Shown piece after piece: positions 1 through 56,309 of a stretch of 64,000 nt of DNA. The stretch is from the sequence record MK509462. One strand, written 5' to 3'. Below the pieces are notes generated by a model. That model had not been told where the DNA came from. It was given only the letters and a program-made list of their open reading frames with translations, and made no database searches. The stretch's first letter is position 1. Each line of letters opens with the position of its first letter. The translations under genes were made by a program, and so were the position numbers. The stretch is from Shigella phage MK-13.

Positions 1-764
1 CCGCTATTCAAGAAACCGAAAACGCTGCCAACGTCGAGCGCCTGCGTCTGGTTGAAGCTCATCAGTCTGAGATTGCTCAGCTGAAAGAGTCTCACTTGAT
101 GGAGATCGCAACCAAAGTTGACAGCTTCCTGAACGCTGTTGTAGAAGAGTGGGCTAACACCAACGCTCCTGCAATCGATGCTCAGATCAAGCGTGAAGCA
201 GCTGAAAACCTGCTGACTGGCCTGACTGGCGTTCTGAAAGAAGCTGGTATCAACTTTGCGACTGACGAAAACGGCCAGATCGCTGCGCTGACTGCCCGCC
301 TGACAGAAGCAGAACAACGCGCTGCGGCTGCTGAAAGCGAAAACCGTCAAATCAAAGAAGCCGCGAATGCGACTCTGCGCGACTCTGTGATCGCCCGTAT
401 CTGTGAAGGCATGGTCGACACCAAGAAAGCAACGGTTGTCAATCTGCTGGAAGCGGTGCAGTTCACCACCGAAAGCGAATTCGCTTCCCGCGTACACACC
501 TTCCGCAACCTGGTAGAAGGTAAGTCCGCGAAGAAAGAAGGCGATGACGATGACGACTTCCAGGATAAAGTCGGCGGCAAAGATGGCGACGACGACAACA
601 AAGGCGACAAAGACAAAGTCGACGAAGGCAAAAAGTCTAAGAAAGAAGGCGATGACGGCGACGATGATGGCAAAGACGATGAAGATGAAACAGACAAAGA
701 GCTGAAAGAATCTATCAAGCGTCAGTTGGCCGACTATAATCGTCGCTTCGGCATCAACGGCTAA
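1..764 (+). CDS. prohead core scaffold protein, gp22-like (5' partial; reading frame opens at nt 3)
   Basis: Open frame runs to window start; coiled-coil then acidic K/D/G/E low-complexity tail; sits immediately upstream of gp23 homolog as in T4. Confidence 0.6.
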   Translation, partial: AIQETENAANVERLRLVEAHQSEIAQLKESHLMEIATKVDSFLNAVVEEWANTNAPAIDAQIKREAAENLLTGLTGVLKEAGINFATDENGQIAALTARLTEAEQRAAAAESENRQIKEAANATLRDSVIARICEGMVDTKKATVVNLLEAVQFTTESEFASRVHTFRNLVEGKSAKKEGDDDDDFQDKVGGKDGDDDNKGDKDKVDEGKKSKKEGDDGDDDGKDDEDETDKELKESIKRQLADYNRRFGING

Positions 765-846
765 TTTTAGCAGCCACAGCCCTCGAAAGGGGGCTTGATT
801 TTGAACTACTAAGTAATTTCAACTTAACTGAATATCAATGTAAGGA

Positions 847-2178
847 ATGACCATCATGGCTAAGAAACTTGTTACTGAACAAATGCGCGAGCAGTGGCTG
901 CCAGTTCTTCAGAAAGAATCTGAAAGTATCCAGCCGCTTTCTGCCGAAAACGTTGCTGTCCGCCTGCTGCAAAACCAGGCTGAGTGGAACGCCAAAAACC
1001 TGGGCGAATCTGACGCTCCTGGTTCTGTGAACAACTCTGTGGGCAAATGGCAGCCAGTCCTGATCGACATGGCAAAACGTCTGGCTCCGATCAACATCGC
1101 GATGGACTTCTTCGGCGTACAGCCGCTGTCTGGTCCTGACGGTCAGATCTTTGCTCTGCGTGCTCGCCAGGGCGTCGGCGACTCATCCAACACCCAACAG
1201 TCCCGTAAAGAACTGTTCATGCAGGAAGCTGATTCCGGCTACTCTGGTGACGGTACTGTACAGGCTGGCGATCCATCTGGCTTTACTCAGGCCGAGATCG
1301 AAGGTTCCGGCGCTGGCGTGACCACCATCGGTAAAGGCATGCCAACCACCGACGCTGAACTGCTGGGCACCACCACCAACCCATGGGCGCGTGTTGGTAT
1401 CACCGTTCAGAAAGCAACCGTGACTGCGAAGTCTCGTGGCCTGTACGCTGACTACAGCCATGAACTGCGCCAGGACATGATGGCGATCCACGGCGAAGAC
1501 GTTGACAGCATCCTGTCCGACGTGATGGTAACTGAAATTCAGGCGGAAATGAACCGTGAGTTCATCCGTACCATGAACTTCAGTGCAGTACGCTTCAAAA
1601 AATTCGGCGCAAACGGCGTTGTAGACATCTCCACCGACATCTCCGGTCGTTGGGCGCTGGAAAAATGGAAGTACATGACTTTCATGCTGGAAGTTGAAGC
1701 GAACGGCATCGGTGTTGACACCCGTCGTGGTAAAGGCAACCGTGTTCTGTGTTCTCCGAACGTAGCATCCGCTCTGGCAATGTCCGGCATGCTGGATTAC
1801 GCTCCGGCGCTGCAGGAAAACACCAAGCTGGCGATCGACCCAACTGGCCAGACCTTCGCTGGTGTTCTGTCTAACGGTATGCGTGTCTACATCGACCCGT
1901 ATGCAGTAGCAGAGTACATCACCCTGGCATACAAAGGCGCGACCGCGCTGGATGCTGGTATCTTCTTCGCGCCGTATGTGCCGCTGGAAATGTACCGCAC
2001 CCAGGGTGAAACCACCTTCAGCCCACGTATGGCGTTCAAAACTCGTTACGGCATCTGCGCGAACCCATTCGTACAGATCCCAGCGAACCAGGACCCACAG
2101 GTTTACGTGACTGCCGATGGTATCGCTCAGGACAGCAACCCTTACTTCCGTAAAGGTCTGATCAAAGGTCTGTTCTAA
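847..2178 (+). CDS. major capsid protein, T4 gp23-like
   Basis: N-terminus MTI..., blocks FFGVQPLSGPDGQIFALRA and NPW...KSRGL...ELRQD...EIQAEMNRE match T4 gp23; highly biased codon usage; alternative start at 856 has better RBS spacing. Confidence 0.85.
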   Translation: MTIMAKKLVTEQMREQWLPVLQKESESIQPLSAENVAVRLLQNQAEWNAKNLGESDAPGSVNNSVGKWQPVLIDMAKRLAPINIAMDFFGVQPLSGPDGQIFALRARQGVGDSSNTQQSRKELFMQEADSGYSGDGTVQAGDPSGFTQAEIEGSGAGVTTIGKGMPTTDAELLGTTTNPWARVGITVQKATVTAKSRGLYADYSHELRQDMMAIHGEDVDSILSDVMVTEIQAEMNREFIRTMNFSAVRFKKFGANGVVDISTDISGRWALEKWKYMTFMLEVEANGIGVDTRRGKGNRVLCSPNVASALAMSGMLDYAPALQENTKLAIDPTGQTFAGVLSNGMRVYIDPYAVAEYITLAYKGATALDAGIFFAPYVPLEMYRTQGETTFSPRMAFKTRYGICANPFVQIPANQDPQVYVTADGIAQDSNPYFRKGLIKGLF

Positions 2179-2197
2179 TCTAACAGGCTGGTCCTAC

Positions 2198-2224
2198 AAA
2201 ACCCCGCTTCGGCGGGGTTTTTCA
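2198..2224 (+). terminator. rho-independent terminator after capsid gene
   Basis: GC hairpin aaaccccgcttcggcggggttt followed by T-run. Confidence 0.7.
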
Positions 2225-2270
2225 TTATGGGGATTCGCTATATGATGTGCCAAACTAATTGGAGGCCATC

Positions 2271-2498
2271 ATGAACGATAAAGAAATAGACATCCGTGCT
2301 ATAGAGCTACAGGGCGCGAAGAAATACATCATGGGACAGATTGAAGAAGCGGAAAAGGAGTTGAGGCGTTTGAAATCTGGTATCTTCAGCTCATTCATGA
2401 ATTCCAAATCGATATTGGCTGTAGAGGTCTACAAAGATACGATGAGTATTCTGCTAGACGACATCAACAAGAAGATCGCTAGACACATTCCGAGTTAA
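2271..2498 (+). CDS. hypothetical protein (75 aa)
   Basis: ORF with GGAGG RBS 6 nt upstream of ATG. Confidence 0.4.
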   Translation: MNDKEIDIRAIELQGAKKYIMGQIEEAEKELRRLKSGIFSSFMNSKSILAVEVYKDTMSILLDDINKKIARHIPS

Positions 2499-2590
2499 TT
2501 CCTTTATCGTGTCGATTTAATACCCGCGTTGTTCAATACACCTGCCTGTTGTATGCTTGTACAGTCAACCATACAACAGGAGTACAAATC

Positions 2591-2923
2591 ATGTCAAGTA
2601 ACCTCGTATCACCAACACAATCCGTGTCCCAAATTCTGGTCAATGCTCGTTCTCATAAAGAGCGTTTGTGCAACCTCCTCACCAATATCAGAAACATCCG
2701 TATCCAACTCGACGGTGATTACCCAACCGCTCAGAAAGGTGAAGATAAAGAAATGGCCGCGCCTGGTCTGGTCGGCTCGGTGATTGACGTCCAGTCTGAC
2801 CAGGACGATATTATCGACGCTATCTTTACCCATCTGGATGTAATCCATGAAAAACTAGGCACTTCATGTCATCCAGAATGTGAAGATGGGGTTGGTTCCC
2901 AGAATATGACTTTGGCTGGATAA
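2591..2923 (+). CDS. hypothetical protein (110 aa)
   Basis: ORF with AGGAG RBS; start chosen by RBS rather than first ATG. Confidence 0.4.
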   Translation: MSSNLVSPTQSVSQILVNARSHKERLCNLLTNIRNIRIQLDGDYPTAQKGEDKEMAAPGLVGSVIDVQSDQDDIIDAIFTHLDVIHEKLGTSCHPECEDGVGSQNMTLAG

Positions 2924-2983
2924 AGAGTTTCAAAGATTGCATGATGGTATTATTACCCTCTCTATTAATCGAGGAAATCACAA

Positions 2984-3183
2984 TGAGCCTGAAAGAAGAT
3001 TCTGTAAACACCACAGTCGCCAACTCCACCTTCCGTGAGTGGCACGACGTATTGTGCAAAGTCGCGAAAAGCCAGGGTGGTTCAGCCGCCGACGCCGACG
3101 CCTGGCGTGATGATTACGAAGCGGGCAAGACCCCTCGCCAGTCTTGGGAAGATGAATGGGGTTGGGAAGAACAAGAAGGATAA
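2984..3183 (+). CDS. hypothetical small acidic Trp-rich protein (66 aa)
   Basis: ORF with GAGGAA RBS. Confidence 0.3.
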
Positions 3184-3243
3184 CAGTTTTCAATAACGGG
3201 GTGAGAGGTATTATTGCCCCGTCTACTATCCGAGGGCTGTGCC

Positions 3244-3471
3244 ATGTACCTGAAAAAGATCGTGAAGAAGCCGAAAGGTGATGTTGTCGAAGTATGTCTC
3301 ATTGAGGCTTACGTTGACTCCTGGAACAACGAGCAGCGTTACTTCATGGTCGACACGATGGTGTATGTGCCAGCCTCTCACCTGAACCGTGATTTCATCA
3401 CAACCGAAAATGTCGTCCGCTGGGAGATTGCAACGCAGTCCGATATCGACGAACATCCCATTTTGAACTGA
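3244..3471 (+). CDS. hypothetical protein (75 aa)
   Basis: ORF with GAGGG RBS. Confidence 0.35.
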   Translation: MYLKKIVKKPKGDVVEVCLIEAYVDSWNNEQRYFMVDTMVYVPASHLNRDFITTENVVRWEIATQSDIDEHPILN

Positions 3472-3483
3472 AGGATCTATATC

Positions 3484-3927
3484 ATGTGTGATAAGAATTT
3501 CATTTTCATTAGTCCCGCCAAGAAACAGTTCTTCCGTAGCTCCGTTGGGGACAAGGTGGAAGGTTTCCGTAAACTCAAAGATTATCGCCTGGCATGCGGT
3601 GATGTTGATTTTCAGAGCTTCGACAATGATCGCCAGGATTTGAACGATGAGGGTTGGACAGAAGTTCCATCCCCACAGTTTATCGACGTCAAGCTGTACT
3701 ACATGAAGGACAGTGGGAAGTATTATTCAGAAGGTGTGATCAAAATCAACCGTGGGGAGGCCGAGGCCGAACCTGCTAAGTCCTGGATGGAGACTATGGA
3801 TAAAATCCGCTATCTGCTTGACTCAGGCAATTTGCCTGGTTTGGTTAAAGGTGCCCGGTACGAGGTCTTCGTGACCGGAGAAGGGCATCCAGGTGGGTAT
3901 CCGGCGGCATTCCACATTAACAACTGA
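3484..3927 (+). CDS. hypothetical protein (147 aa)
   Basis: ORF preceded by conserved aaggaNctatatcATG initiation context. Confidence 0.5.
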   Translation: MCDKNFIFISPAKKQFFRSSVGDKVEGFRKLKDYRLACGDVDFQSFDNDRQDLNDEGWTEVPSPQFIDVKLYYMKDSGKYYSEGVIKINRGEAEAEPAKSWMETMDKIRYLLDSGNLPGLVKGARYEVFVTGEGHPGGYPAAFHINN

Positions 3928-3934
3928 GGTCATC

Positions 3935-4171
3935 ATGAGAATCAAAAAGATCGGCGCAAGTCCTCTCACTGGGACAATCTTCCAGGGCACCCTGAACACC
4001 AAGACCAGCATGTGGATCGGTGAGAAGACTGATGTGACCGAAGACTGCGTGGCGGCCACGGCTGAACACATGCGACACATCAAGAAAGACTATTGCTTCC
4101 CAACGACGGATGGTAAGTTCTTGGTGCTGTCAGCTGAACTGCACGACACCCTTCCTGACCGTTTTAAATAA
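3935..4171 (+). CDS. hypothetical protein (78 aa)
   Basis: ORF with GAGG RBS. Confidence 0.4.
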   Translation: MRIKKIGASPLTGTIFQGTLNTKTSMWIGEKTDVTEDCVAATAEHMRHIKKDYCFPTTDGKFLVLSAELHDTLPDRFK

Positions 4172-4195
4172 ATTCAATAAAAAGTTGAATACGGG

Positions 4196-4224
4196 GTTTA
4201 CTTCTTCAATAAACCCCGTATACT
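4196..4224 (+). promoter_or_regulatory. T4-type early promoter (-35 GTTTAC, 17-nt spacer, -10 TATACT) embedded in stem-loop
   Basis: acggggTTTACttcttcaataaaccccgTATACT; hairpin spans the -35 (PeSL-like cassette). Confidence 0.5.
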
Positions 4225-4273
4225 TCATTCCATAAGCAGCACAACACTGACTCTGAAATGAAGGAAATACATC

Positions 4274-4540
4274 ATGGCACGTTCAATCCACGATTTTAAA
4301 GACTCTGATATCCTGGCTTTCATCATGGACGGTCGAATGGTAGTTGTAAACGATGGCGACGACCGCCACAATACCACTCTGGTGATGAACAACGAAGTTG
4401 TTTACAGCAACACCCGCGAAGGCATGATCAAGATGCTTCAAAACCCTCAGCGCTTCGGCAGCAAAATACACAAAGATTACAAAAGCCGCTGCCCGATGCT
4501 GGCTCAGCGCCTGATTTGGGCGATGCAAAGCGCCGCATAA
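4274..4540 (+). CDS. hypothetical protein (88 aa)
   Basis: ORF with AAGGAA RBS downstream of promoter cassette. Confidence 0.45.
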   Translation: MARSIHDFKDSDILAFIMDGRMVVVNDGDDRHNTTLVMNNEVVYSNTREGMIKMLQNPQRFGSKIHKDYKSRCPMLAQRLIWAMQSAA

Positions 4541-4545
4541 CAAAC

Positions 4546-4565
4546 AAGCCCCTCCGGGGGCTTCT
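4546..4565 (+). terminator. intergenic GC hairpin, probable terminator
   Basis: aagcccctccgggggctt followed by T-containing tract. Confidence 0.5.
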
Positions 4566-4595
4566 GTCTCCCATTTGAATTGAAGGAACTATATC

Positions 4596-4877
4596 ATGAC
4601 AACTAAAGCGCAATTGATCGAAGCCCTGAATGCTGGCGCTATCACCCACTCTCGTTACAAAGTAACATTGCAGCAATTTGTTGGTATGGCCGTCGGAAAT
4701 GCCAAATTCACCCCAATCTCTTCCCCTGAAAAATTTCCAGTTAAGGCCAGCCAGCCGAAGTTTTCGGTAGTTTGCCAGGGTGAAGAAATCACCGCTCTGT
4801 GGGAATATGATAACATGTATTTTGAATGTTCTGACGGCGTGTTAGCATACCATGTGGAAGGCGAGCATTTGTTCTAA
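4596..4877 (+). CDS. hypothetical protein (93 aa)
   Basis: ORF with conserved aaggaactatatcATG context. Confidence 0.45.
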   Translation: MTTKAQLIEALNAGAITHSRYKVTLQQFVGMAVGNAKFTPISSPEKFPVKASQPKFSVVCQGEEITALWEYDNMYFECSDGVLAYHVEGEHLF

Positions 4878-4936
4878 ACCTTTGAACGGGGTATGTTAAC
4901 CGCATACCCTATCCCCTACAAATAGAGGACTTTATC

Positions 4937-5257
4937 ATGGCTAACAGCATCCCAATTTTAGAAGCGGTCGTAAAAGAGAACCCTCGTGCGCGCAAATCGC
5001 GTCGTCGACTGGTCACCAAGCTGGACCTTCTGAAACAGAAGTTCGGCGACCACAGTGTGTTCGCTCGTATCCGTAATGCATTAAAGGAAGGAAGAACCGA
5101 GCTGGAGCTTTATCGCCCGAACGGTTCGACACGCGCGTATCAAACCACTGACGGCTTACTGGAACTGATCCGCCTGAGCGGGATGACAATCGAACCCCGT
5201 TCGTCAGGCACTCCTCTGTGCTCCCTGTATGTCATCGGCAATCTTGGGGCGCTGTGA
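4937..5257 (+). CDS. hypothetical protein (106 aa)
   Basis: ORF with GAGGA RBS after hairpin. Confidence 0.45.
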   Translation: MANSIPILEAVVKENPRARKSRRRLVTKLDLLKQKFGDHSVFARIRNALKEGRTELELYRPNGSTRAYQTTDGLLELIRLSGMTIEPRSSGTPLCSLYVIGNLGAL

Positions 5258-5262
5258 GTTCC

Positions 5263-5685
5263 ATGAAGAAATATATCGTACTCGTTACAGGTTCCCGCTC
5301 AATCACCGAGCGGGATAAGGTATTCGCCAAGCTGGACGAACTCCTCGATCCTCATGAAGTCTATACGTTGATCGAGGGTGAGGCCACGGGTGTCGACACG
5401 ATTTGCCGTGATTGGGCTGAAATCAATTATGTTCATACCACTCCTATGCCAATCCCTCCGAGCTATTATGAAAAGTATGGGAACGGGATGGGCAACAAAC
5501 GCAATCAGGACATGTTAGACAAGGCATTGGATCTCGCCAGGCAGACCAAGCTGGAAGTGTATCCGATTGCGATGTGGGATGGTTCGTCCACTGGCACCCT
5601 GGACATGATCAACCGTTGCAAGAAAGCTGGCCTCCCTGTGGACATCACACTGATGGGCAAGCCGAAGACCAAGCGCCTTTTGTAA
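5263..5685 (+). CDS. hypothetical protein, possible Rossmann-like (SLOG/LOG-like) fold
   Basis: N-terminal MKKYIVLVTGSRSI motif resembles Rossmann-type nucleotide-binding families; weak call. Confidence 0.35.
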   Translation: MKKYIVLVTGSRSITERDKVFAKLDELLDPHEVYTLIEGEATGVDTICRDWAEINYVHTTPMPIPPSYYEKYGNGMGNKRNQDMLDKALDLARQTKLEVYPIAMWDGSSTGTLDMINRCKKAGLPVDITLMGKPKTKRLL

Positions 5686-5726
5686 CATACCATAAATAAT
5701 TTGAGTTCACACAGCGGAGATACATC

Positions 5727-5894
5727 ATGTTTGTCGTCAATCTGTTCTGCTATATCTTCACGGCGTACTTCCTGGGAGCAGTAGGGTTCGAGACCTACAA
5801 TGACCTGAAGGAGGGCGAATACGCCGACTGGAAGGTCTATGCCAAGAAGTTCGCTCGGAAGTTCTGGTCCAACTTCGTTTACAAACTGCCATGA
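5727..5894 (+). CDS. hypothetical small hydrophobic protein (55 aa)
   Basis: ORF below 60 aa with GGAGA RBS, hydrophobic N-terminus. Confidence 0.3.
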   Translation: MFVVNLFCYIFTAYFLGAVGFETYNDLKEGEYADWKVYAKKFARKFWSNFVYKLP

Positions 5895-5931
5895 TCACCT
5901 AAATACCCCCATCATCCATGGGGGTATTTTC

Positions 5932-6661
5932 TATGAACGCACAGATCTATGACGCCCTTGAGCAGGGCAACGCATTTAACAATCCTCTCCCGTCCCTCAG
6001 CAGCACGTCTCAGGGTTTAATCACCAGCGGCAAGGCGACTACAGCTGCACTGGCAAACACCGGAAATACGCAAATCCAGGGCGCTCTGACGGCAGGCGGT
6101 CTAACCACGGCCAAGCTCAATGAAACGAACACGATGTTCACCTCTGCCAACACCAGCCTCACCACGCTGAACAACTATGGTGATCAGACTGTGAACGAAG
6201 CGTATTCCCGCATCGGGACTTCCGTGTCGTACAAATCTGGCCTGAAGTCAATCGAGCGCGAGCCGACCAACTGTGATCTGATCAATAATGCCTTCGGCGT
6301 CATACAGACTCTTGGGCGCCAGTGGATCGGCGCTATGGAGGGCGCTCTCAGCACTGTTACCGCCAAGATGGCCGAACTGGCTGAGTTAGTTGCGCAGGGT
6401 GTGAGCGCTGGCCTGGCAAAGATCCAGGCGCTGGCCGCCGAAGTTACCGGATATATCAACGATGCTATTGCTCAGGTGGCGCAAATCGGTCAGGATATCG
6501 CCAATGGTATTGCCTCAGAGTTGGCCCACATCCAAGACATGGTCAGCAAGTGTCTGAACTTCTCGTTCGCCAATGTACTGTCTGAGTGGGCTAAAGACCT
6601 GTGCGCTGGTGGTGTTATCAACAACATCGGTTCTGATAATCTGAAGAGCGCCCTGAAGTAA
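5932..6661 (+). CDS. hypothetical Ala/Thr/Gly-rich protein (243 aa)
   Basis: Long ORF; low-complexity T/A/G-rich N half, helical C half. Confidence 0.5.
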
Positions 6662-7312
6662 TCAGCGCTCCCGCGCCGGAAGAACTCCCACTGGTTCGAT
6701 ACCGTCCAACAGTAGGGAGTTCACCCCGACGTTGCTCAGCCTGATCCAGATCGTCCCCTCTGGCTTCACTTCGAAGATGTTCATCTCATTCCCAACAGCA
6801 TCGTTGTTGACAAACACACCCTGAGTTGCGATTCGTACTGGCTTGTCTGAGTCATTCATGATCTTGAACGTCACGATTATATCCGATGTTTCACTCAGTC
6901 GCCCAACCATGTGTTGCTTCAGTTTGGCGTAGAATGATGGATTAAAAGTGATGATGATGCTGTTGTTCTGAGAGTAATAAATACTTGCTGATAGGTATGG
7001 AATCTTCCCTTCATCGCCACGACGCAGGAGGGGAATCGTGGTCTTCCAGTATGGCTTGAGGGTGCTCGTGTTCTCCTCGAAGCAACCCAAAGGCACGAGC
7101 TTCTGGAAGGTCTGGAACTCTTGCACGATGATGTCCAGCATACCCTTGTTACAAGTAGGAACACTGGCCGACAACGTCACGGGCACGGTGCGTACTTCTG
7201 GGTTCCAGAGTTCGGAAACAGAAATTATTGGCGTGACAAAGATGCGACAGCTCGTAAGCAAGAGCATCGCGCATGCCAACAACAATCTACTGATCCCGCG
7301 CATCAGGGTCAC
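6662..7312 (-). CDS. putative lipoprotein
   Basis: N-terminus MTLMRGISRLLLACAMLLLTSC has signal-peptide shape with lipobox-like L-T-S-C; GTG start with GGAGA RBS (ATG alternative at 7303). Confidence 0.45.
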   Translation of the reverse strand: MTLMRGISRLLLACAMLLLTSCRIFVTPIISVSELWNPEVRTVPVTLSASVPTCNKGMLDIIVQEFQTFQKLVPLGCFEENTSTLKPYWKTTIPLLRRGDEGKIPYLSASIYYSQNNSIIITFNPSFYAKLKQHMVGRLSETSDIIVTFKIMNDSDKPVRIATQGVFVNNDAVGNEMNIFEVKPEGTIWIRLSNVGVNSLLLDGIEPVGVLPARER

Positions 7313-7341
7313 AAAATATCTCCACAGCAAAAGGTGCTATT

Positions 7342-7842
7342 ATGTCCGACGTACAATTCAAGAACGAAAACCCTAATTTCGCGGCGTCCGATAAGTGGCG
7401 TCTGACTATCGGAGACCTTGTACTCCTAACCCGTAACATCCACGACTTCAGTATACCAGGAGTGTACTCTGAAGGCATCGATGGTCCGTCTCCTGGCGAC
7501 GTACTGGTTTCTATCCCTTCAGAACGTTTAACCTATGATCCCGTCGTATTTACTTTCGTTATAGACGAGGACTGGAAATCATGGTTACAGATCCACCAAT
7601 GGATCACCAGCAACGTCGGCAAGGATTTGGCTGTCTCCAAGGACATTACCATTGAATTACTGGATAACCTCAACCGACCGATTGGCCTCACTCTCGTGCT
7701 GGAGGAAGCCCGTCCGACTGCTCTGGACAACGTACTGGTGGATGTGGACGCGGCTGTACCTCAGCTGGTGACGACAGTGACGTTCAAGTTCCAGCAGCTG
7801 GTCCCACTATCTGGTGGGAAGGTGATTGATTCTAATCCATGA
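7342..7842 (+). CDS. hypothetical protein (166 aa), weak resemblance to tail-tube/gp19-like fold
   Basis: Some sequence pattern similarity to T4 gp19 family by eye; not decisive. Confidence 0.4.
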   Translation: MSDVQFKNENPNFAASDKWRLTIGDLVLLTRNIHDFSIPGVYSEGIDGPSPGDVLVSIPSERLTYDPVVFTFVIDEDWKSWLQIHQWITSNVGKDLAVSKDITIELLDNLNRPIGLTLVLEEARPTALDNVLVDVDAAVPQLVTTVTFKFQQLVPLSGGKVIDSNP

Positions 7843-7884
7843 AATACGGTATAATTCTATGACATTGACAAGCTGGGATATTTT

Positions 7885-8337
7885 ATGAAAGAACAACTAC
7901 AGACAATGGCAACCGAGGACATCATGAACGAACTGGAGCCGCTGATTACAGTGGACCCAGAAGACATGAACCTTGACCAGATCTCACTGAAAATCGGGCG
8001 CTCTTGGATGGCCGTACAACGGCATTATCTGCGTGAGGGGCGTTATCTTGAATTCCTCAACGGGCGCTTCCGCCAGATCGATCTCTATCTGCGCCGCTAC
8101 TACGCAGGGGAGTTACCCCCGAACATCTACGCAGAGCGCCCCCTGAAGGTTCGCCCCCTGAAGTCTGACCTGGACACATGGGTCAAAGCCGACGATGACT
8201 ATGTAGAACTGTCTGTTCTGTTACAAGAACAAAAAGCAAAAGTCAAGTTCATCGAGACTTGTTTGGATCGCCTGAACAAGCTGGGATACGAAGTGAAGAA
8301 TGCCATCGATTGGCGAAAATATATGGATGGTTCCTGA
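7885..8337 (+). CDS. uvsY: recombination mediator UvsY-like
   Basis: Size and C-terminal block TCLDRLNKLGYEVKNAIDWRKY resemble T4 UvsY; adjacent to uvsW. Confidence 0.6.
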   Translation: MKEQLQTMATEDIMNELEPLITVDPEDMNLDQISLKIGRSWMAVQRHYLREGRYLEFLNGRFRQIDLYLRRYYAGELPPNIYAERPLKVRPLKSDLDTWVKADDDYVELSVLLQEQKAKVKFIETCLDRLNKLGYEVKNAIDWRKYMDGS

Positions 8338-9083: not shown

Positions 9084-9111
9084 ATACCCCATATATCTTG
9101 GGAGATTTTGT

Positions 9112-10620: not shown

Positions 10621-10988
10621 TCTTGATTCACATAGGCGGGGGTGGCCTCGCCTTCATCAGATACTGCGCCGAACAATTTGTCCAGAGAAACCAGACATTG
10701 TGCGTTCAGGTGTTCACTGATAGTGTCCTTCAGCATTTGTTCGCTGCCCAATTTGAATGGCAGAACCTTCGCTTCGACGCCGTTTTCAAACGTCACCACA
10801 CCGACATACAGACCAACTTTCAGGCCTGCCATCAAACCCAGAGGGACAAATCGCGGCTCCGATGGTAAGTTCTTGTCTGACGCCAGCTGCGCCAGATAAA
10901 CTGGGGTGCCTGTGACAAATTGCCCTGCGGTGAGGATGGCGTCTGGCTTACTGCATCCGACCGCATATAATCCTACGAACTGTTTCAT
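10611..10988 (-). CDS. hypothetical protein (125 aa)
   Basis: Minus-strand ORF with GAGAG RBS, convergent with uvsW. Confidence 0.4.
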   Translation of the reverse strand: MKQFVGLYAVGCSKPDAILTAGQFVTGTPVYLAQLASDKNLPSEPRFVPLGLMAGLKVGLYVGVVTFENGVEAKVLPFKLGSEQMLKDTISEHLNAQCLVSLDKLFGAVSDEGEATPAYVNQDQS

Positions 10989-25708: not shown

Positions 25709-25714
25709 CAGAAG

Positions 25715-25739
25715 TCCCCAACGTTTGTTGGGGATTTTT
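25715..25739 (+). terminator. rho-independent terminator
   Basis: tccccaacgtttgttgggga followed by T-run. Confidence 0.7.
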
Positions 25740-25749
25740 ACTTTTAGGG

Positions 25750-25779
25750 GTTTACTTCCTCTAAGGAATATCCTATTAT
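25750..25779 (+). promoter_or_regulatory. T4-type early promoter (-35 GTTTAC, -10 TATTAT)
   Basis: GTTTAC, 18-nt spacer, TATTAT directly after terminator. Confidence 0.45.
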
Positions 25780-25831
25780 TCAATAACTGGCGAACGATGG
25801 GGTTCACCAGGTTGAAAGGTAAGATTATATC

Positions 25832-26071
25832 ATGAAGAACAAAATGGTCGAAACTTCAGTAGAGATTGATCGCAATTGGGGCTTGCTCCGCGCTAAAGGG
25901 TTCCGCCGTGTGTATGCGACCAAAGAGGTATATGCCCAGCGCCGTGACGTTATCATCAGCAAGAAGGGCAAAGAGTGGGTTGCTGAAGAAGTCGATGTTG
26001 AGACAGGCGTCGTCGGCAAGGTGAAAGCCAAGGCCGCGATCCTCTTCGCTCTTCTGAAGCACATCAGCTAA
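25832..26071 (+). CDS. hypothetical protein (79 aa)
   Basis: ORF with conserved aaggtaagattatatcATG context. Confidence 0.4.
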   Translation: MKNKMVETSVEIDRNWGLLRAKGFRRVYATKEVYAQRRDVIISKKGKEWVAEEVDVETGVVGKVKAKAAILFALLKHIS

Positions 26072-27941: not shown

Positions 27942-27963
27942 ATACGATAGTTTATTGAAACCC

Positions 27964-27992
27964 TTTACTCAACATGGTGATCCGCCTATCAT
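27964..27992 (+). promoter_or_regulatory. T4-type early promoter (-35 TTTACT, 17 nt, -10 TATCAT)
   Basis: cccTTTACTcaacatggtgatccgccTATCAT. Confidence 0.4.
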
Positions 27993-28020
27993 TTCATCCA
28001 ATGAAATAAGGAGAATCACC

Positions 28021-28707
28021 ATGAAACGTTTAATCCTCGGGGTCGTGCTGGCTGGTCTGGCATTACCCGCCGTCGCCAAGCTGAACTCCACAGGTGACAA
28101 ACTGTGGTCTGATCTTTCCTACTGTGCTGGGTTCTCCCAGGCAGTCGCCATCGACAAGTCTGGTTCCATAGAGAACTTTGCTGAACTCTGGAACACAGGC
28201 AACGTCTCCACTGCAGTTGTTAACGCTGGGATTGAGTTCAACCGTTACAAACAGGGAGCCTATAACCTCAAGGGCTACCTCAATGACGACGAATTTAATC
28301 GAGGCGGCATGGAGGCTGGCGATCTTATCATGACTGGGCGTATGGGCACCCAAGGCCGAATGACAGTCAGACAGTGCCGTTCTCTCCCTTCTCCGGCATT
28401 ACAGAAGGGTGTGCAGATAGGCCGCCGCCACCTGAACCTCATCAACGATGGCAATCAGTGCATCAAAGTATTCGAATACAGCGCTACGCAGACCTCTGAT
28501 CGAGTCCTGAAGAAGGAATGGCGCACCCGCGCCCTCGACCTCAGGGCATGGTTGGTGGAGAACGATTATTACTTTGAAGACAGGGTTCAGAACGGCCTGA
28601 AAGACCTGGCCACGAATCTGAGCGTGAACCTTGATGATCCTCGCATGTCGCGCGAACTCCAGCAGACTCGTGTTGACTGCGACAATATGATGAAGGAGAA
28701 CGAGTGA
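28021..28707 (+). CDS. putative secreted protein (signal peptide, 228 aa)
   Basis: MKRLILGVVLAGLALPAVA signal peptide; AAGGAG RBS. Confidence 0.55.
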   Translation: MKRLILGVVLAGLALPAVAKLNSTGDKLWSDLSYCAGFSQAVAIDKSGSIENFAELWNTGNVSTAVVNAGIEFNRYKQGAYNLKGYLNDDEFNRGGMEAGDLIMTGRMGTQGRMTVRQCRSLPSPALQKGVQIGRRHLNLINDGNQCIKVFEYSATQTSDRVLKKEWRTRALDLRAWLVENDYYFEDRVQNGLKDLATNLSVNLDDPRMSRELQQTRVDCDNMMKENE

Positions 28708-41144: not shown

Positions 41145-41156
41145 AAATAATTCAAT

Positions 41157-41177
41157 AAAAGGGGCTTTCGCCCCTTT
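41157..41177 (+). terminator. terminator hairpin of promoter cassette
   Basis: aaaaggggctttcgccccttt. Confidence 0.6.
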
Positions 41178-41203
41178 ACTTCTTCAATATCCTTCCCTAT
41201 ACT
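41175..41203 (+). promoter_or_regulatory. T4-type early promoter (-35 TTTACT, 17 nt, -10 TATACT)
   Basis: Same cassette as 4196..4224; downstream leader is near-identical. Confidence 0.5.
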
Positions 41204-41251
41204 TCATTCCATAAGCAGTACGACACCAACTTGAAACGAAGGAACTATATC

Positions 41252-41623
41252 ATGAACGCGATCAAAACAGATTTCACCAAACCAGAAATGTCTATCCTTG
41301 AATCCCTTGGCTTCGGCGTTGTAACCCTCGAAGGTCAGATTGTTGACCGTGGTTTGGTAGACAACGTTGAAATGGGTATCACGACAAACGGTGATCGCGA
41401 CGCTACGATGAAAGCGGTCCACGCAAAATTCCTGGCTGAAGGTTGGAATTTCAAAAATTCCCCAGTGAATGGTTTGCCAGTTGACCACATGCACCACACG
41501 ATCTTCCTGAAAGATGGGTTCCAGATTGGATTCTACTCCATGGACGCCATCGTCAAATCCGGTAAAGAACTGATCGAGTCTAAAGATCACTACCTTTCCG
41601 TAAGTAAATCCACCTGGGCATGA
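41252..41623 (+). CDS. hypothetical protein (123 aa)
   Basis: Conserved aaggaactatatcATG context. Confidence 0.45.
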   Translation: MNAIKTDFTKPEMSILESLGFGVVTLEGQIVDRGLVDNVEMGITTNGDRDATMKAVHAKFLAEGWNFKNSPVNGLPVDHMHHTIFLKDGFQIGFYSMDAIVKSGKELIESKDHYLSVSKSTWA

Positions 41624-48156: not shown

Positions 48157-48249
48157 AACTTTTTACTTCACATCACCTCCCTCCAGGCCTCGTCGAATGA
48201 GGCCTTTTAAAATACTTCAAAATTATTTTAAAAATTTATTGAAAAAGAC

Positions 48250-48278
48250 TTTACTCTTCAATAATGATGCACTATTAT
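48250..48278 (+). promoter_or_regulatory. T4-type early promoter (-35 TTTACT, 17 nt, -10 TATTAT) with AT-rich upstream element
   Basis: ctTTACTcttcaataatgatgcacTATTAT preceded by a 40-nt A/T tract. Confidence 0.5.
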
Positions 48279-48351
48279 AGTTCACATAGGGCGGCAACAC
48301 ACCGCCGAATGAAAAGTGAAACGAACCAACTACATTATGAGGAATTACATC

Positions 48352-48840
48352 ATGGCTACTACCAAAACTCTGATCACCAACGGCACCATCTCTTTCGAAC
48401 TGAACACCGAAGTTGCTAAAGTTGAAATGTTCCGCATCGCTCAGGCAGCTGGCTTCACTGGTGGCAAAACTTCCTTCATGAACCTGCTGAACGGCAAAGT
48501 AAAAGCGACCAACGGCTTCACCCTGGTAGAGCAGGTTGTGGTTGACAAAGCTGTGGTTGCTAAGACCGCCGACAAAGTTGGCATGCTGAAAGACCTGGGT
48601 CACGACATCCACGTTGTCGAAGCGAACACCGAAACTTACGGCACCATCGTAGTCGGTAAAGGTCGCATCCAGCTGAACCCACTGAACAACGGTTCCTTCT
48701 CTGTGATGGTCTTCCCTAAGAAAGGCTACGCAAACGAAGACATCGTGAAAGCGGCTGGTGGTGAAGCAAAAGCTCAGTACGTCAAAATGGGTAAACTGGC
48801 CGCCAAAGACGTTCAGACCCTAGTGAGCAAACTGGCTTAA
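48352..48840 (+). CDS. hypothetical protein (162 aa), probably abundantly expressed
   Basis: Strongly biased codon choice similar to capsid gene; strong promoter and terminator flank it. Confidence 0.55.
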   Translation: MATTKTLITNGTISFELNTEVAKVEMFRIAQAAGFTGGKTSFMNLLNGKVKATNGFTLVEQVVVDKAVVAKTADKVGMLKDLGHDIHVVEANTETYGTIVVGKGRIQLNPLNNGSFSVMVFPKKGYANEDIVKAAGGEAKAQYVKMGKLAAKDVQTLVSKLA

Positions 48841-54997: not shown

Positions 54998-55003
54998 TCT
55001 GTC

Positions 55004-55026
55004 AAAGCCCCTTTATTAGGGGCTTT
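55004..55026 (+). terminator. terminator hairpin of promoter cassette
   Basis: aaagcccctttattaggggcttt. Confidence 0.6.
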
Positions 55027-55050
55027 ACTTTTCAAAACAATTTTTATAGT
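55024..55050 (+). promoter_or_regulatory. possible early promoter (-35 TTTACT, -10 TATAGT, short 15-nt spacer)
   Basis: gcTTTACTtttcaaaacaattttTATAGT. Confidence 0.3.
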
Positions 55051-55098
55051 ATTCTAGGCCGCGGCAACAATGCCGCATTTGACCAGAAGGACTATATC

Positions 55099-55485
55099 AT
55101 GGATCTACACTCCCGTAGTATGTTAGACGCCACCACCGCTTTCCCTATCCAAGGCCTGGCTTTGTCTTTACCATTTAAACAATATGTGCCATATATGTTT
55201 ACAGTTATCGGGGAAGAGTATCCCCGCTCTATCATCAGAGCGTTGCGTGATGCTCTTCATGGGGGCGCAGCGTTATCCAAGGAGACTATGCGCTCGAAGA
55301 ACGTTATGGTAATTGATCCCGAATGTTTGTCTGAAGACCAAAAATTATACAAAGAGTTTCAAGGTAATGCTCAACATGCGGAATTTCTGTATCAATCTGA
55401 ACGCCTCACGTTCAGAAAGGACAACCAACTCTTGTACGTGATCGACCGTGGCACAAACTTGCCGTTGGCTCTCTATATTCAATAA
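55099..55485 (+). CDS. hypothetical protein (128 aa)
   Basis: Conserved aaggactatatcATG context. Confidence 0.45.
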   Translation: MDLHSRSMLDATTAFPIQGLALSLPFKQYVPYMFTVIGEEYPRSIIRALRDALHGGAALSKETMRSKNVMVIDPECLSEDQKLYKEFQGNAQHAEFLYQSERLTFRKDNQLLYVIDRGTNLPLALYIQ

Positions 55486-55500
55486 AATACAGTAAATTCA

Positions 55501-55521
55501 AAGCCCTCACTGAGGGCTTTA
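55501..55521 (+). terminator. terminator hairpin of promoter cassette
   Basis: aagccctcactgagggcttt. Confidence 0.6.
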
Positions 55522-55546
55522 CTTTTGAAACGCCCTCCCCTATACT
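55518..55546 (+). promoter_or_regulatory. T4-type early promoter (-35 TTTACT, 17 nt, -10 TATACT)
   Basis: gcTTTACTtttgaaacgccctccccTATACT. Confidence 0.5.
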
Positions 55547-55596
55547 TCCCAGTAATTCATTGGCATTCGCCACAAATTGAAAGCGGGAACTATATC

Positions 55597-55836
55597 ATGA
55601 CCGACTCCGAAGTCTACGACGCCTCAATGAAATACCACGCCATGACAGCCAAACGCGGCTGTGCTGCTGACAAGGTCTATTGGATAGGTGAACTCAGAAC
55701 CCTCCGCGCCGTGGTCAACCACGAAATCATTATGAATCGCGGCAACAACGGTCAAGGTAAAGACCGGGAAGAATTGAAGGTTGCTCGTGAACGCCTTCGC
55801 TTTGGTCTGACCAAAGCCCTTGAATATGTGAAATAA
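55597..55836 (+). CDS. hypothetical protein (79 aa)
   Basis: Conserved gggaactatatcATG context. Confidence 0.4.
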   Translation: MTDSEVYDASMKYHAMTAKRGCAADKVYWIGELRTLRAVVNHEIIMNRGNNGQGKDREELKVARERLRFGLTKALEYVK

Positions 55837-55847
55837 GGAACTATATC

Positions 55848-56309
55848 ATGACAAACAAAGTACTCACCAACCCACTGCACAACTTCGGTTACATTCAACT
55901 CCCTCTGGTGATCGACACCCTGTACGCCGACGACAAAGAAGAGATCTGCTGGTCACCCGCTGCACTGATTGAACGCGAAATCTTCAAGTCTGTTGTTGAT
56001 GTTATGTTCCGTATCGGTCGCAATGGACCTCTGGTCTACCTCGGCAAAGTAACTGAACTGAAGACAAGCCACAGTGAACGCTTCCTGCGTATTGATACCA
56101 CAGGGTGCTATCAGCAGGACTTCAACACACTGCGTAACTATGTACTGATCAACCGTCCGGTCAGCCAGCACCGCCCGTACCTGACGTCAATGCACATCGA
56201 CAATTTCATCACCGACGTACACCTCCGCGCCGAAACCCTCCATGAAGAGGAAACAGGCCGAGCTATCGACACAGTCTTAAATATGGTTGTGATCACCCTG
56301 GCGGAGTAG
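55848..56309 (+). CDS. hypothetical protein (153 aa)
   Basis: Conserved aaggaactatatcATG context. Confidence 0.45.
   Translation: MTNKVLTNPLHNFGYIQLPLVIDTLYADDKEEICWSPAALIEREIFKSVVDVMFRIGRNGPLVYLGKVTELKTSHSERFLRIDTTGCYQQDFNTLRNYVLINRPVSQHRPYLTSMHIDNFITDVHLRAETLHEEETGRAIDTVLNMVVITLAE

What the first reader, a model, noticed from the sequence alone, without database searches (positions are those of the whole stretch)
4186..4262. Repeated terminator-hairpin plus early-promoter cassettes with near-identical leaders
Seen in sequence: copies at about 4186..4262 and 41157..41251 share the hairpin, -35 TTTAC, -10 TATACT and the leader cttcattccataagcag...gaaNgaaggaaNtaNatcATG. Related cassettes occur at 25715..25830, 27955..28020, 48240..48351, 55004..55098 and 55501..55596. 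Established knowledge: T4-type early promoters use a GTTTAC-like -35, and mobile promoter-early-stem-loop cassettes that bracket small early genes have been described in pseudo-T-even phages. Inference: these cassettes mark laterally shuffled early genes, which are prime candidates for host-takeover or anti-defense functions.
Basis: partly seen in the sequence, partly recalled or inferred. Interest (0 to 1): 0.45.

Follow-up and report, generated by a model that had tools for sequence, protein, structure and literature searches.

The report
Conserved early-promoter cassettes flanking swapped genes
This ViI-like (Ackermannviridae) phage carries seven short non-coding cassettes (six with a terminator hairpin, all with a host-type promoter and a leader), which stay at fixed places and are unusually conserved across the family while the small genes of unknown function behind most of them are swapped between phages.

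Summary
All seven reported sites carry TTTACT-N16/17-TATNNT on the + strand. Seven of the eight such matches on that strand lie in the 7.8% of the window that is intergenic. Six have a stable hairpin upstream. The copies at 4197 and 41175 share 69 of 80 bases from -35 to ATG. Their hairpins, however, are different, and the site at 27964 has none.

The window is an Agtrevirus (Ackermannviridae), not a T4-type phage. The cassettes sit at the same places in six relatives and in CBA120. They are more conserved than genes: median 91% against 76% versus CBA120. The 4191-4276 core is 85/86 identical across genera.

The genes behind them turn over. At least 4 and 3 unrelated gene families follow the two main cassettes. 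Each such gene is found in about 10% of the records that hold the cassette. Breakpoints fall on the ATG, on -10/TSS or on hairpin/-35, with 23-35-base overlaps.

The best reading is promoter-early-stem-loop-like (PeSL-like) terminator/promoter/leader cassettes that act as fixed slots for gene exchange by homologous recombination. Early timing, promoter activity and host-takeover roles remain untested. This is a new member of a known kind.

The parts
4172..4276 (+). Cassette T1 (c4197). It holds TTCAATAA at 4173-4180 and 4205-4212, and a 10-12-bp inverted repeat/hairpin at 4189-4221 that encloses the -35. It also holds -35 TTTACT at 4197-4202, -10 TATACT at 4219-4224, an inferred start near 4231, an unstructured A/C-rich leader, SD AAGGAA and ATG at 4274.
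   Evidence: The core 4191-4276 is 85/86 identical to Kuttervirus CBA120 against 65-82% in the flanks.
4274..4540 (+). 88-aa gene of unknown function in the T1 slot. It is variable between relatives.
   Evidence: Absent from Ag3, ChubbyThor and SKML-39, and replaced in Gloob and EspM4VN. tblastn finds it in only 29 phage records, including 43-45% identical homologs in T4-like Citrobacter and Yersinia phages. phrog_16902, unknown function.
4546..4598 (+). Hairpin + ATTTGAATTGAAGGAACTATATCATG. This duplicates the 3' end of the T1 leader in front of gene 4596-4877 and is the right-hand crossover site of the 4274-4540 indel.
   Evidence: Relatives join the T1 leader directly to ATGACAACTAAAGCG, with a 23-26-base overlap.
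25709..25834 (+). Cassette c25751. It holds a terminator hairpin at 25710-25739 with a T-run, a duplicated TTTACTT, -35 at 25751-25756 and -10 TATTAT at 25774-25779. It also holds a leader hairpin at 25787-25810, TTGAAAGG...TATATC and ATG at 25832.
   Evidence: 93.6% identical to CBA120. Genes are inserted exactly after the ATG in Gloob, P46FS4 and EspM4VN. Ag3 has an extra cassette plus gene here. The Ag3 homolog is listed as tentative early promoter Porf138.
25832..26071 (+). 79-aa gene of unknown function behind c25751.
   Evidence: phrog_804, unknown function. No Pfam or NCBIfam match.
27942..28023 (+). Cassette c27964. It holds an inverted TTCAATAA at 27952-27959, -35 at 27964-27969, -10 TATCAT at 27987-27992, a short leader and ATG at 28021. 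It has no hairpin.
   Evidence: 92.9% identical to CBA120. It leads a conserved 228-aa signal-peptide protein, annotated as a putative i-spanin in ChubbyThor. The only nearby event is an endonuclease-gene insertion upstream in ChubbyThor.
41145..41254 (+). Cassette T2 (c41175). It holds TTCAATAA at 41151-41158, a terminator hairpin at 41158-41177 whose T-tail is the -35, -35 at 41175-41180 and -10 TATACT at 41198-41203. It also holds an unstructured leader and ATG at 41252.
   Evidence: Found in 272 phage records, 266 of them at 80% coverage or more. The stem is kept while the loop varies, and there is one compensatory pair in IME250.
41252..41623 (+). 123-aa gene of unknown function in the T2 slot. 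It is variable between relatives.
   Evidence: Replaced in Ag3 and SKML-39, with the break at 41255-41256. Found in only 26 phage records. phrog_31745, unknown function.
48185..48354 (+). Cassette c48250. It holds a terminator hairpin at 48185-48205, an AT-rich stretch with an inverted TTCAATAA, -35 at 48250-48255 and -10 TATTAT at 48273-48278. It also holds a leader hairpin GGCGGCAACACACCGCC near 48291-48307 and ATG at 48352.
   Evidence: 97.4% identical to CBA120. No turnover in six relatives. The Ag3 homolog is listed as Porf100.
54998..55101 (+). Cassette c55024. It holds a hairpin at 55001-55028, -35 at 55024-55029, a -10 TATAGT/TAGTAT within 55045-55052, a leader hairpin near 55061-55076 and ATG at 55099. 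Among the seven Agtrevirus genomes compared, only the window has it.
   Evidence: The left breakpoint of the indel is at 55030-55036 in all six relatives.
55099..55485 (+). 128-aa gene of unknown function, absent from all six Agtrevirus relatives.
   Evidence: Found at the same post-glutaredoxin locus in Kuttervirus pSK20 at 83.6% identity.
55486..55599 (+). Cassette c55518. It holds a hairpin at 55500-55520, -35 at 55518-55523, -10 TATACT at 55541-55546, a leader hairpin at 55561-55572 and ATG at 55597.
   Evidence: Relatives carry one chimeric cassette here, joined to gene 55848. 92.4% identical to CBA120.
55597..55850 (+). 79-aa gene of unknown function (55597-55836) plus a repeated AAGGAACTATATCATG in front of gene 55848. 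The gene is absent from all six relatives.
   Evidence: Breakpoints at 55601 and 55829 with a 24-base overlap.

Best explanation
These are composite regulatory cassettes of an Ackermannviridae phage, built like the promoter-early-stem-loop (PeSL) elements of T4-like phages.

**Layout.** Each cassette has four parts.
1. An intrinsic-terminator-type GC hairpin closes the upstream unit. Its T-tail doubles as the -35 in three cassettes.
2. A host sigma-70 promoter follows, with -35 TTTACT, a 16-17 base spacer and -10 TATACT, TATTAT or TATCAT. It has AT-rich TTCAATAA motifs upstream or in the spacer.
3. Next comes a 30-75-base leader that leaves the ribosome site open.
4. A stereotyped end, TTGAAA-(A)AGGAAC-TAYAYC-ATG, finishes the cassette.

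**Inferred from sequence, not shown.** Host RNA polymerase starts about 7 bases after the -10 early in infection. It transcribes units that begin with a small gene of unknown function and continue into replication and nucleotide-metabolism genes.

**Shown by comparison.** The cassettes stay at fixed syntenic places and are far more conserved than the genes around them. The first gene behind five of them is gained, lost or replaced between close relatives and between genera. The break points fall on cassette parts.

**Inferred mechanism.** The cassettes, and separately their 3' leader/ATG module, are the patches of homology at which the phage's own recombination system swaps gene cassettes. A newly arrived gene is then expressed at once without disturbing its neighbours. 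Exchange through the cassette, together with selection on promoter strength, keeps its sequence nearly invariant.
For: **Motif statistics.** Promoter pattern: 8 matches against 1.2 expected, with 7 of 8 intergenic; fixed-spacing version 4 against 0.02. Leader end: 10 against 0.31, + strand only. TTCAATAA: 13 against 1.76, with 11 in promoter-like intergenic regions.

**Hairpins.** dG is -13 to -17 kcal/mol, with z -3.95 or lower, for 6 of 7 cassettes. In T2 the stem is kept while the loop varies (TTTC, GAAA, AAAC, TTT, TTTT, TTCG). There is one compensatory change, GGGGC/GCCCC to GGGAC/GTCCC.

**Leaders.** The T1 and T2 leaders fold no better than shuffles (z +0.2 and +1.5). The others have only a 5' hairpin and an open ribosome site.

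**Conservation.** Cassette intergenic regions have a median 91% identity to CBA120. Other intergenic regions have 78% (p = 0.0024) and genes 76% (p = 7e-5). The T1 core is 85/86 identical to CBA120 and is 95% or more identical in 205 of 274 records.

**Synteny.** The same six cassettes are found in each of six relatives.

**Turnover.** 6 of 7 cassette junctions are hit, against 34 of 84 other junctions (p = 0.026). Relatives hold single chimeric cassettes where the window has cassette-gene-cassette, with 23-35-base overlaps. Extra genes come with extra cassettes: Ag3 at the 25751 locus and the window at 55024. In Gloob the T1 promoter is identical up to TATACTTCA, and then the leader and gene differ.

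**Slot contents.** At least 4 unrelated protein families follow T1 and at least 3 follow T2. The window's two slot genes occur in 29 and 26 records, against about 270 records for the cassettes.

**Exchange tracts.** Tracts of 93-100% identity to CBA120 start inside c25751 and just after the c48250 terminator.

**Match to published PeSLs.** Same layout, same T4/PST promoter consensus and GGGG...CCCC stems. In RB49 mini-circles the crossovers were mapped between the -10 and the ATG and in the stem-loop (PMC4122927; PMC2839356).
Against: - No transcript, reporter or recombination data exist for these sites. Promoter, terminator and early timing are inferred from sequence alone.
- The hairpins have only a short or interrupted T-run on the + strand. 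T1 has none, so it may terminate poorly.
- Enrichment of breakpoints at cassette junctions is modest (p = 0.026). The six relatives are not independent, and long junctions catch more breakpoints.
- 34 other junctions also turn over, and junctions with the leader-end motif alone are not enriched (9 of 16 against 31 of 75, p = 0.21).
- Two cassettes show no turnover of the gene they lead.
- Near-invariance of every base of T1 is more than a promoter is expected to need. Recombinational homogenisation as the cause is an inference.
Confidence: 0.7

Rival explanations
1. These are ordinary, strongly selected early promoters with terminators. Gene turnover next to them is incidental, because any intergenic gap in this plastic region tolerates indels. 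The cassettes play no part in the recombination.
For: 40 of 91 junctions have a breakpoint in at least one relative, and most of those lack a cassette. The enrichment is only p = 0.026. c27964 and c48250 lead conserved genes. Several indels in relatives are homing-endonuclease insertions unrelated to the cassettes.
Against: Breakpoints are not scattered within the gaps. They fall on the ATG, the -10/TSS or the hairpin/-35, with 23-35-base overlaps (61 bases in the other cassette type) that are the repeated cassette parts. Four of the five overlap-type deletions are of this kind. Extra genes arrive with their own cassette. High-identity tracts shared with another genus begin inside cassettes.
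Confidence: 0.2
2. The extreme conservation, above all of T1, reflects a further sequence-specific function layered on the promoter. One option is an operator: the 10-12-bp inverted repeat ACGGGGTTTA-N9-TAAACCCCGT spans -35 to -10. Another is a translational operator or RNA-processing site in the leader end (..AGGAACTATATCATG), for instance for the phage's RegA homolog.
For: 85 of 86 bases are unchanged between genera that differ by about 24% elsewhere, including the spacer and the whole leader. The inverted repeat covers the promoter core, and no T-run follows it on the + strand. A RegA homolog is encoded at 13525-13989 (PF01818, E = 1.9e-34). The leader-end motif recurs at 17 gene starts, including junctions without a promoter.
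Against: No covariation can be read from invariant sequence. T2 and the other cassettes lack the inverted repeat yet share the promoter. The T1 and T2 leaders are predicted to be unstructured, and Rfam finds nothing. The regA, gene 44 and gene 45 homologs do not carry the full motif. The RegA binding specificity of this family is unknown.
Confidence: 0.15
3. The cassettes are themselves mobile elements that transpose or are copied to new places, carrying genes with them.
For: T1 and T2 are clearly paralogous (69/80). Ag3 and the window each have one extra cassette with an extra gene.
Against: Six cassettes are at the same syntenic positions in six Agtrevirus genomes and in CBA120. T1 and T2 keep their type-specific differences across genera, so they are old paralogs, not recent copies. 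No transposase or integrase was seen next to them in the annotations.
Confidence: 0.05

Closest known systems
PeSL (promoter-early stem-loop) cassettes of T4-like phages: RB49/phi1, T4/PST, KVP40/nt-1 (Arbiol et al. 2010, PMC2839356; Comeau et al. 2014, PMC4122927)
   Same: The layout is the same: AT-rich stretch, GGGG...CCCC-type stem-loop, sigma-70-like promoter, SD and ATG within about 100 bp. The promoter consensus is the same as in T4/PST (TTTACW-N17-TAYWAT). They lie next to genes of unknown function that differ between close relatives. One phage has a single chimeric element where the other has element-gene-element. Crossovers fall between the -10 and the ATG or in the stem-loop region.
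   Different: The virus family is different (Ackermannviridae), and no paper in the searched library links it to PeSLs. There are few copies, 7 in 64 kb, at fixed syntenic places, rather than dense clusters. Each cassette is conserved across genera (T1 85/86 identical), whereas copies within a genome, apart from T1/T2, share only motifs. The 3' leader/ATG module also occurs alone at promoter-less junctions and serves as a separate crossover site. Promoter and terminator activity and mini-circles, which were shown for RB49, are untested here.
T4 early promoters
   Same: -35 (G)TTTAC, an AT-rich upstream region, recognition by unmodified host sigma-70 polymerase, and a position in front of small pre-replicative genes.
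   Different: The -10 is mostly TATACT or TATTAT rather than TATAAT. A C-rich stretch lies just before the -10. Kutter et al. 2011 (PMC3184105) found no homologs of T4 gpAlt, gpModA, MotA or AsiA in ViI-like phages and could not identify early promoters by informatics.
Morons of lambdoid phages
   Same: A gene with its own promoter and terminator is inserted between neighbours and is transcriptionally insulated.
   Different: Morons are thought to arrive by illegitimate recombination without conserved flanks (as discussed in PMC2839356). Here the conserved flanks are the junctions.
Integron gene cassettes
   Same: A fixed platform with a resident promoter receives exchangeable promoter-less or self-expressed open reading frames.
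   Different: No integrase or attC-type sites were seen. Exchange is inferred to use general homologous recombination on 20-100-base repeats.

Membership tests
PeSL regulatory cassettes | Composite element in one short intergenic region: stem-loop, sigma-70-like -35/-10, SD and start codon | tested here: met
   Six of seven sites have all parts. c27964 lacks the stem-loop.
PeSL regulatory cassettes | Several copies per genome with sequence conservation spread over about 100 bp | tested here: inconclusive
   T1 and T2 share 69/80 bases. The other five share motifs only, with mean column identity 50%. The motif counts are far above chance.
PeSL regulatory cassettes | Association with genes of unknown function that differ between closely related genomes | tested here: met
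   6 of 7 cassette junctions carry indel or replacement breakpoints, against 34 of 84 others (p = 0.026). At least 4 and 3 unrelated gene families follow T1 and T2.
PeSL regulatory cassettes | Recombination between elements leaves a single chimeric element where the gene is missing | tested here: met
   Junction sequences at 4279/4576, 55036/55498 and 55601/55829 overlap by 23-35 bases. This is inferred from genome comparison, not observed as an event.
PeSL regulatory cassettes | Measured promoter and terminator activity (reporter fusions) | not testable with these tools
   Needs experiments. No transcript data for the family was found.
PeSL regulatory cassettes | Formation of mini-circles by exchange between neighbouring elements | not testable with these tools
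   Needs inverse PCR or deep sequencing of infected cells.
T4-type early (sigma-70) promoters | -35 GTTTAC-like and -10 TAnnnT at 16-18 bases, with an AT-rich upstream region | tested here: met
   TTTACT-N16/17-TATNNT at all seven sites. TTCAATAA or AT-rich stretches lie upstream. The consensus is quoted from PMC4122927.
T4-type early (sigma-70) promoters | Active immediately after infection with unmodified host polymerase | not testable with these tools
   Only the gene context (replication and nucleotide-metabolism units downstream) points that way.
Intrinsic (rho-independent) terminators | GC-rich stem-loop followed directly by a T-run on the transcribed strand | tested here: inconclusive
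   The stems are stable. The tails are TTTACTT(C/T)TT (interrupted) in T2, c55024 and c55518, good in c25751 and c48250, and absent in T1. The complementary strand has the better T-run in T1 and T2.
RegA-controlled translation initiation regions | A RegA protein is encoded, and a shared operator overlaps the start codon of several early genes | tested here: inconclusive
   A RegA homolog is present (PF01818, E = 1.9e-34). A shared motif sits at 17 starts. Binding specificity is unknown, and the motif is absent from the regA, gene 44 and gene 45 homologs.

The most novel reading that the evidence does not exclude
Ackermannviridae keep a small set of positionally fixed, almost invariant promoter-leader 'docking slots'. 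Their two edges (hairpin/-35 and leader/ATG) are the homology arms through which early genes of unknown function are exchanged. The exchange runs among genera (Agtrevirus, Kuttervirus, Taipeivirus, Limestonevirus) and even with T4-like phages. This would be an integrase-free analogue of an integron platform. In it the cassette sequence is held constant by the exchange itself, and the T1 inverted repeat over the promoter core may also be an operator.
Probability: 0.3. Interest if true: 0.6.

Novelty: new member of a known kind. Interest (0 to 1): 0.45.

Why it matters
**Early promoters.** The early promoters of ViI-like phages were explicitly reported as not identifiable by informatics (Kutter et al. 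2011, PMC3184105). Only two of these seven sites were tentatively listed for Ag3, and one of those in a shifted register (PMC3121705, Table S2). A family-wide consensus gives concrete, testable start sites: TTCAATAA...TTTACT-N16/17-TATACT plus the stereotyped leader end.

**Variable genes.** The cassettes also give a practical map of where these therapeutic and biocontrol phages carry their variable early genes. These are the slots behind T1, T2, c25751 and c55024/c55518. That is where host-takeover or counter-defence functions would be sought.

**Reach of the PeSL idea.** The finding extends the PeSL idea of regulatory cassettes as recombination linkers beyond T4-like phages.

Tried and rejected
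- **Generic sigma-70 and terminator scan** of 1-20000. It found 19 promoter-like sites against 17.7 expected, so it has no discriminating power. Only the family-specific pattern does.
- **Rfam at gathering threshold** over the whole window: no family.
- **Structured riboregulator in the leader: rejected.** The T1 and T2 leaders fold no better than shuffles.
- **Upstream ATG at 4258 in T1.** It is out of frame and absent from T2, so it was dismissed.
- **Function of the slot genes.** Pfam and NCBIfam gave nothing significant, and PHROGs gave 'unknown function'. PDB sequence searches with five of the proteins also gave no significant full-length match. The only low-E-value hit was for the 88-aa protein: a 38-residue stretch of the PDB protein Ika8, E = 1.5e-7 with no stretch passing on its own, which was not pursued.
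- **Single-sequence AlphaFold models** of 26131-26637 and 55099-55485. They were unusable (mean pLDDT 40.1 and 36.8), so no fold search was run. The large homology searches were not spent on this side question.
- **Transcriptome or TSS data** for Ackermannviridae: none found.
- **The Viunalikevirus genus proposal** (Adriaenssens et al. 2012). From my memory it mentions 'conserved regulatory sequences'. It is not held in the library, so its content could not be checked.
- **The annotation 'putative DNA-directed RNA polymerase'** for 16281-18299 in Gloob and ChubbyThor. It was checked as a possible alternative polymerase for these promoters. No Pfam or PDB support was found.
- **Three rows of alignment A3** (L015, L017, L026) were extracted with wrong minus-strand coordinates and are ignored.
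- **Presence outside the family.** The only apparent outlier, phage selz, is itself an Ackermannviridae deletion mutant.
Full report
**What the window is.** The window is part of an Ackermannviridae genome of the genus Agtrevirus. It is 96-98% identical, with many indels, to Shigella phages Ag3, Gloob and ChubbyThor and to Salmonella phages P46FS4 and SKML-39. It runs from the prohead protease and major capsid genes, through a long block of replication, recombination and nucleotide-metabolism genes almost all on the + strand, to the gp32 homolog.

**The observation.** All seven sites exist as described.
- The pattern TTTAC-N16-20-TANNNT has 8 matches on the + strand.
- Shuffled sequence gives 1.2 on average and at most 5. 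The seven sites all lie in the 7.8% of the window that is intergenic.
- A fixed-spacing form gives 4 matches against 0.02 expected.
- The 21-mer TATACTTCATTCCATAAGCAG is present exactly twice.
- The copies at 4197 (called T1 here) and 41175 (T2) share 69 of 80 bases from -35 to ATG.
- Six sites have a stable hairpin just upstream (dG -13 to -17 kcal/mol, z between -3.95 and -5.3). The site at 27964 has none.

T1 and T2 do not share a hairpin. In T2, and in 55024 and 55518, the stem lies upstream and its T-tail is the -35 (GGGGC-loop-GCCCC-TTTACTT). In T1 the stem ACGGGGTTTA/TAAACCCCGT encloses the -35 and the spacer and ends at the -10.

**Anatomy.** The common plan has these parts, from 5' to 3'.
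- An AT-rich stretch with the octamer TTCAATAA in either orientation. The octamer occurs 13 times against 1.76 expected, 11 of them in promoter-like intergenic regions.
- The hairpin.
- -35 TTTACT, a 16-17 base spacer with a C-rich end, and -10 TATACT, TATTAT or TATCAT.
- A leader of 30-75 bases.
- A stereotyped end, TTGAAA-(A)AGGAAC-TAYAYC-ATG.

The end motif is a module of its own. TANATCATG occurs 17 times on the + strand and never on the - strand. GGAANTAYAYCATG occurs 10 times against 0.31 expected. It also stands in front of genes that have no such promoter: 3484, 4596, 16281, 26131, 26690, 30037, 34012 and 55848.

The T1 and T2 leaders are predicted to be unstructured (z +0.2 and +1.5). 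The other leaders have one 5'-proximal hairpin and an open ribosome site. Rfam has no match.

**Conservation across the family.**
- T2 is found in 272 phage records and T1 in 274, nearly all Ackermannviridae, usually with two or three places per record. The one apparent outlier is itself an Ackermannviridae mutant.
- The T1 core, 4191-4276, is 85/86 identical to Kuttervirus CBA120. It is 95% or more identical in 205 records and about 91% identical in the Klebsiella-infecting genus Taipeivirus.
- The DNA on either side of T1 is 65-82% identical or not alignable.
- Over the whole window, identity to CBA120 is 76%. The seven cassette intergenic regions have a median of 91%, against 78% for 33 other intergenic regions (p = 0.0024) and 76% for 72 genes (p = 7e-5).
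- T1 and T2 keep their type-specific differences in all genera, so they are old paralogs.
- In T2 the loop varies freely while the stem is kept, and Serratia phage IME250 has a compensatory GGGAC/GTCCC. This supports selection on the hairpin as a structure.

**Gene turnover.** I compared the window with the syntenic 64 kb of six Agtrevirus genomes. Each of them has the same six cassettes at the same places. Ag3 has a second cassette with an extra gene at the 25751 locus. Only the window has the 55024 cassette with its gene.

Forty of 91 gene junctions carry an indel or replacement breakpoint in at least one relative, so this region is plastic in general. Cassette junctions are hit more often: 6 of 7 against 34 of 84 (one-sided Fisher p = 0.026).

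The positions are more telling than the count.
- Gene 4274-4540 is absent from Ag3, ChubbyThor and SKML-39. There the T1 leader runs straight into the next gene. The two ends of the indel are the repeated TGAAnTGAAGGAAnTAnATCATG (23-26-base overlap).
- Genes 55099-55485 and 55597-55836 are absent from all six relatives. Those have one chimeric cassette in front of gene 55848. The ends lie in the hairpin/-35 (29-35-base overlap) and in the leader end (24-base overlap).
- At 25835 and 41255 the homology stops within three bases after the ATG.
- In Gloob, T1 is identical up to TATACTTCA and then continues with a different leader and gene.

**Slot contents across the family.** In the loci I could read, T1 is followed by at least four unrelated protein families and T2 by at least three. 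The window's T1 gene is found in 29 records and its T2 gene in 26, against about 270 records for the cassettes. The T1 gene has 43-45% identical homologs in T4-like Citrobacter and Yersinia phages. Gene 55099-55485 is missing from the Agtrevirus relatives but sits at the same post-glutaredoxin place in Kuttervirus pSK20. Two tracts of 93-100% identity to CBA120 begin inside c25751 and just after the c48250 terminator, in a 50-86% background. This is what exchange with a crossover in the cassette would leave.

**What the genes are.** The genes directly behind the cassettes have no Pfam, NCBIfam or significant full-length PDB match, and they belong to PHROGs of unknown function. Single-sequence structure models were unusable.

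One variable gene in the unit led by c25751, 26131-26637, matches the PHROG 'RNA polymerase ADP-ribosylase' (E = 7.8e-15). It shows an R / S-x-S / E-x-E pattern. This is a hint of a host-takeover function and nothing more. The cassettes 27964 and 48250 lead conserved genes, the first a signal-peptide protein annotated as an i-spanin in ChubbyThor.

**Mechanism and rivals.** The best reading is a PeSL-like terminator/early-promoter/leader cassette that is also the homology patch for gene exchange.
- *Shown:* the motifs, their excess over chance, the hairpin stability, the cross-genus conservation, the synteny and the breakpoint positions.
- *Inferred:* sigma-70 use, the transcription starts, early timing, termination and the causal role in recombination.

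There are three rivals.
- The cassettes are bystanders in a generally plastic region. The precise, repeat-bounded junctions argue against this, but the modest statistics and the two stable cassettes leave it open.
- The near-invariance of T1 reflects a further function, such as an operator formed by the inverted repeat over the promoter core, or a RegA-type translational operator. A RegA homolog is present. The sequence alone cannot test this idea.
- The cassettes themselves transpose. This is contradicted by the synteny.

**Comparison with what is known.** PeSLs were described in RB49/phi1, T4/PST and KVP40/nt-1. They have the same layout, the consensus TTTACW-N17-TAYWAT in T4/PST, GGGG...CCCC stems, neighbouring genes of unknown function, and mapped crossovers between the -10 and the ATG (PMC2839356; PMC4122927).

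For ViI-like phages:
- the Ag3 paper listed eight tentative sigma-70 promoters, two of which are homologs of c48250 and c25751;
- the LIMEstone paper predicted five early promoters;
- the CBA120 paper stated that early promoters could not be identified by informatics.

No paper in the searched library connects Ackermannviridae with PeSLs. I therefore file this as a new member of a known kind. It has three features of its own: few, fixed slots rather than dense clusters; cross-genus near-invariance; and a separable leader/ATG module that also acts as a junction.

Noticed in passing
window 2945-2958, 3206-3219, 26089-26102, 26648-26661, 62772-62785 (+ strand): A second family of intergenic elements. 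It is a GC hairpin whose loop and 3' arm carry a -10-like hexamer (GGGTAT[G/A/T]ATTACCC; 5 matches against 0.88 expected). There is no -35. It is followed by ATTTGAA, SD and CTATATCATG. Ag3 shows a compensatory change in one stem. These may be a different promoter class, such as middle promoters.
   Followed up: partly
window 26131-26637: A 168-aa gene matches PHROG 832 'RNA polymerase ADP-ribosylase' (E = 7.8e-15) and has an R46 / S73-x-S75 / E136-x-E138 pattern. It is flanked by two 61-base copies of the hairpin element. It is absent from Ag3, Gloob and SKML-39 and replaced by denV in P46FS4 and EspM4VN. It is 92-100% identical to CBA120. The 2011 CBA120 paper stated that ViI-like phages have no Alt or ModA homolog.
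   Followed up: partly
window 765-846: The intergenic region upstream of the major capsid gene is 100% identical to CBA120, in an 82% background. It holds a hairpin followed by TTGATTTTGAAC. It probably holds the late promoter and leader.
   Followed up: no
window 48200-48700: The c48250 cassette and the first 350 bases of gene 48352-48840 are 96-98% identical to CBA120. Identity falls to 74-86% in the 3' part of the gene. This is either a recent exchange or an unusual constraint at the nucleotide level.
   Followed up: partly
window 16166-16280: A degenerate relative of the cassettes: cccTTTACTTCATTCTTCAATAAC, about 26 bases before TATTAT (too far for a sigma-70 promoter), then a leader hairpin and ..GGAAGACTACATCATG in front of the 672-aa gene 16281-18299.
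   Followed up: no
window 16281-18299: This gene is annotated 'putative DNA-directed RNA polymerase' in Gloob and ChubbyThor. No Pfam or PDB sequence match supports the name.
   Followed up: partly
window 41650-43746: A large conserved gene has an internal segment (about 42270-43374, up to 43752) that is replaced by unrelated sequence in all six relatives.
   Followed up: no
window 44892-45497 (- strand) and 46624-46908: Two further genes have a patchy distribution. The minus-strand 201-aa gene is shared only with Gloob. The 94-aa gene is absent from five of six relatives. Neither is next to a cassette of the type studied.
   Followed up: no
window 10989-11328 and 58727-59236: These are the two longest non-coding stretches (340 and 510 bases). 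Both are AT-rich and 75-81% identical to CBA120. The first lies upstream of the sliding-clamp gene and has repeated TTGAATAAAAATTGC / TTGAACAAATGGC.
   Followed up: no
window 4274-4540: The 88-aa slot gene has 43-45% identical homologs in T4-like phages of Citrobacter (Miller, IME-CF2, CfP1) and Yersinia (JC221), so it is shared across phage families.
   Followed up: partly
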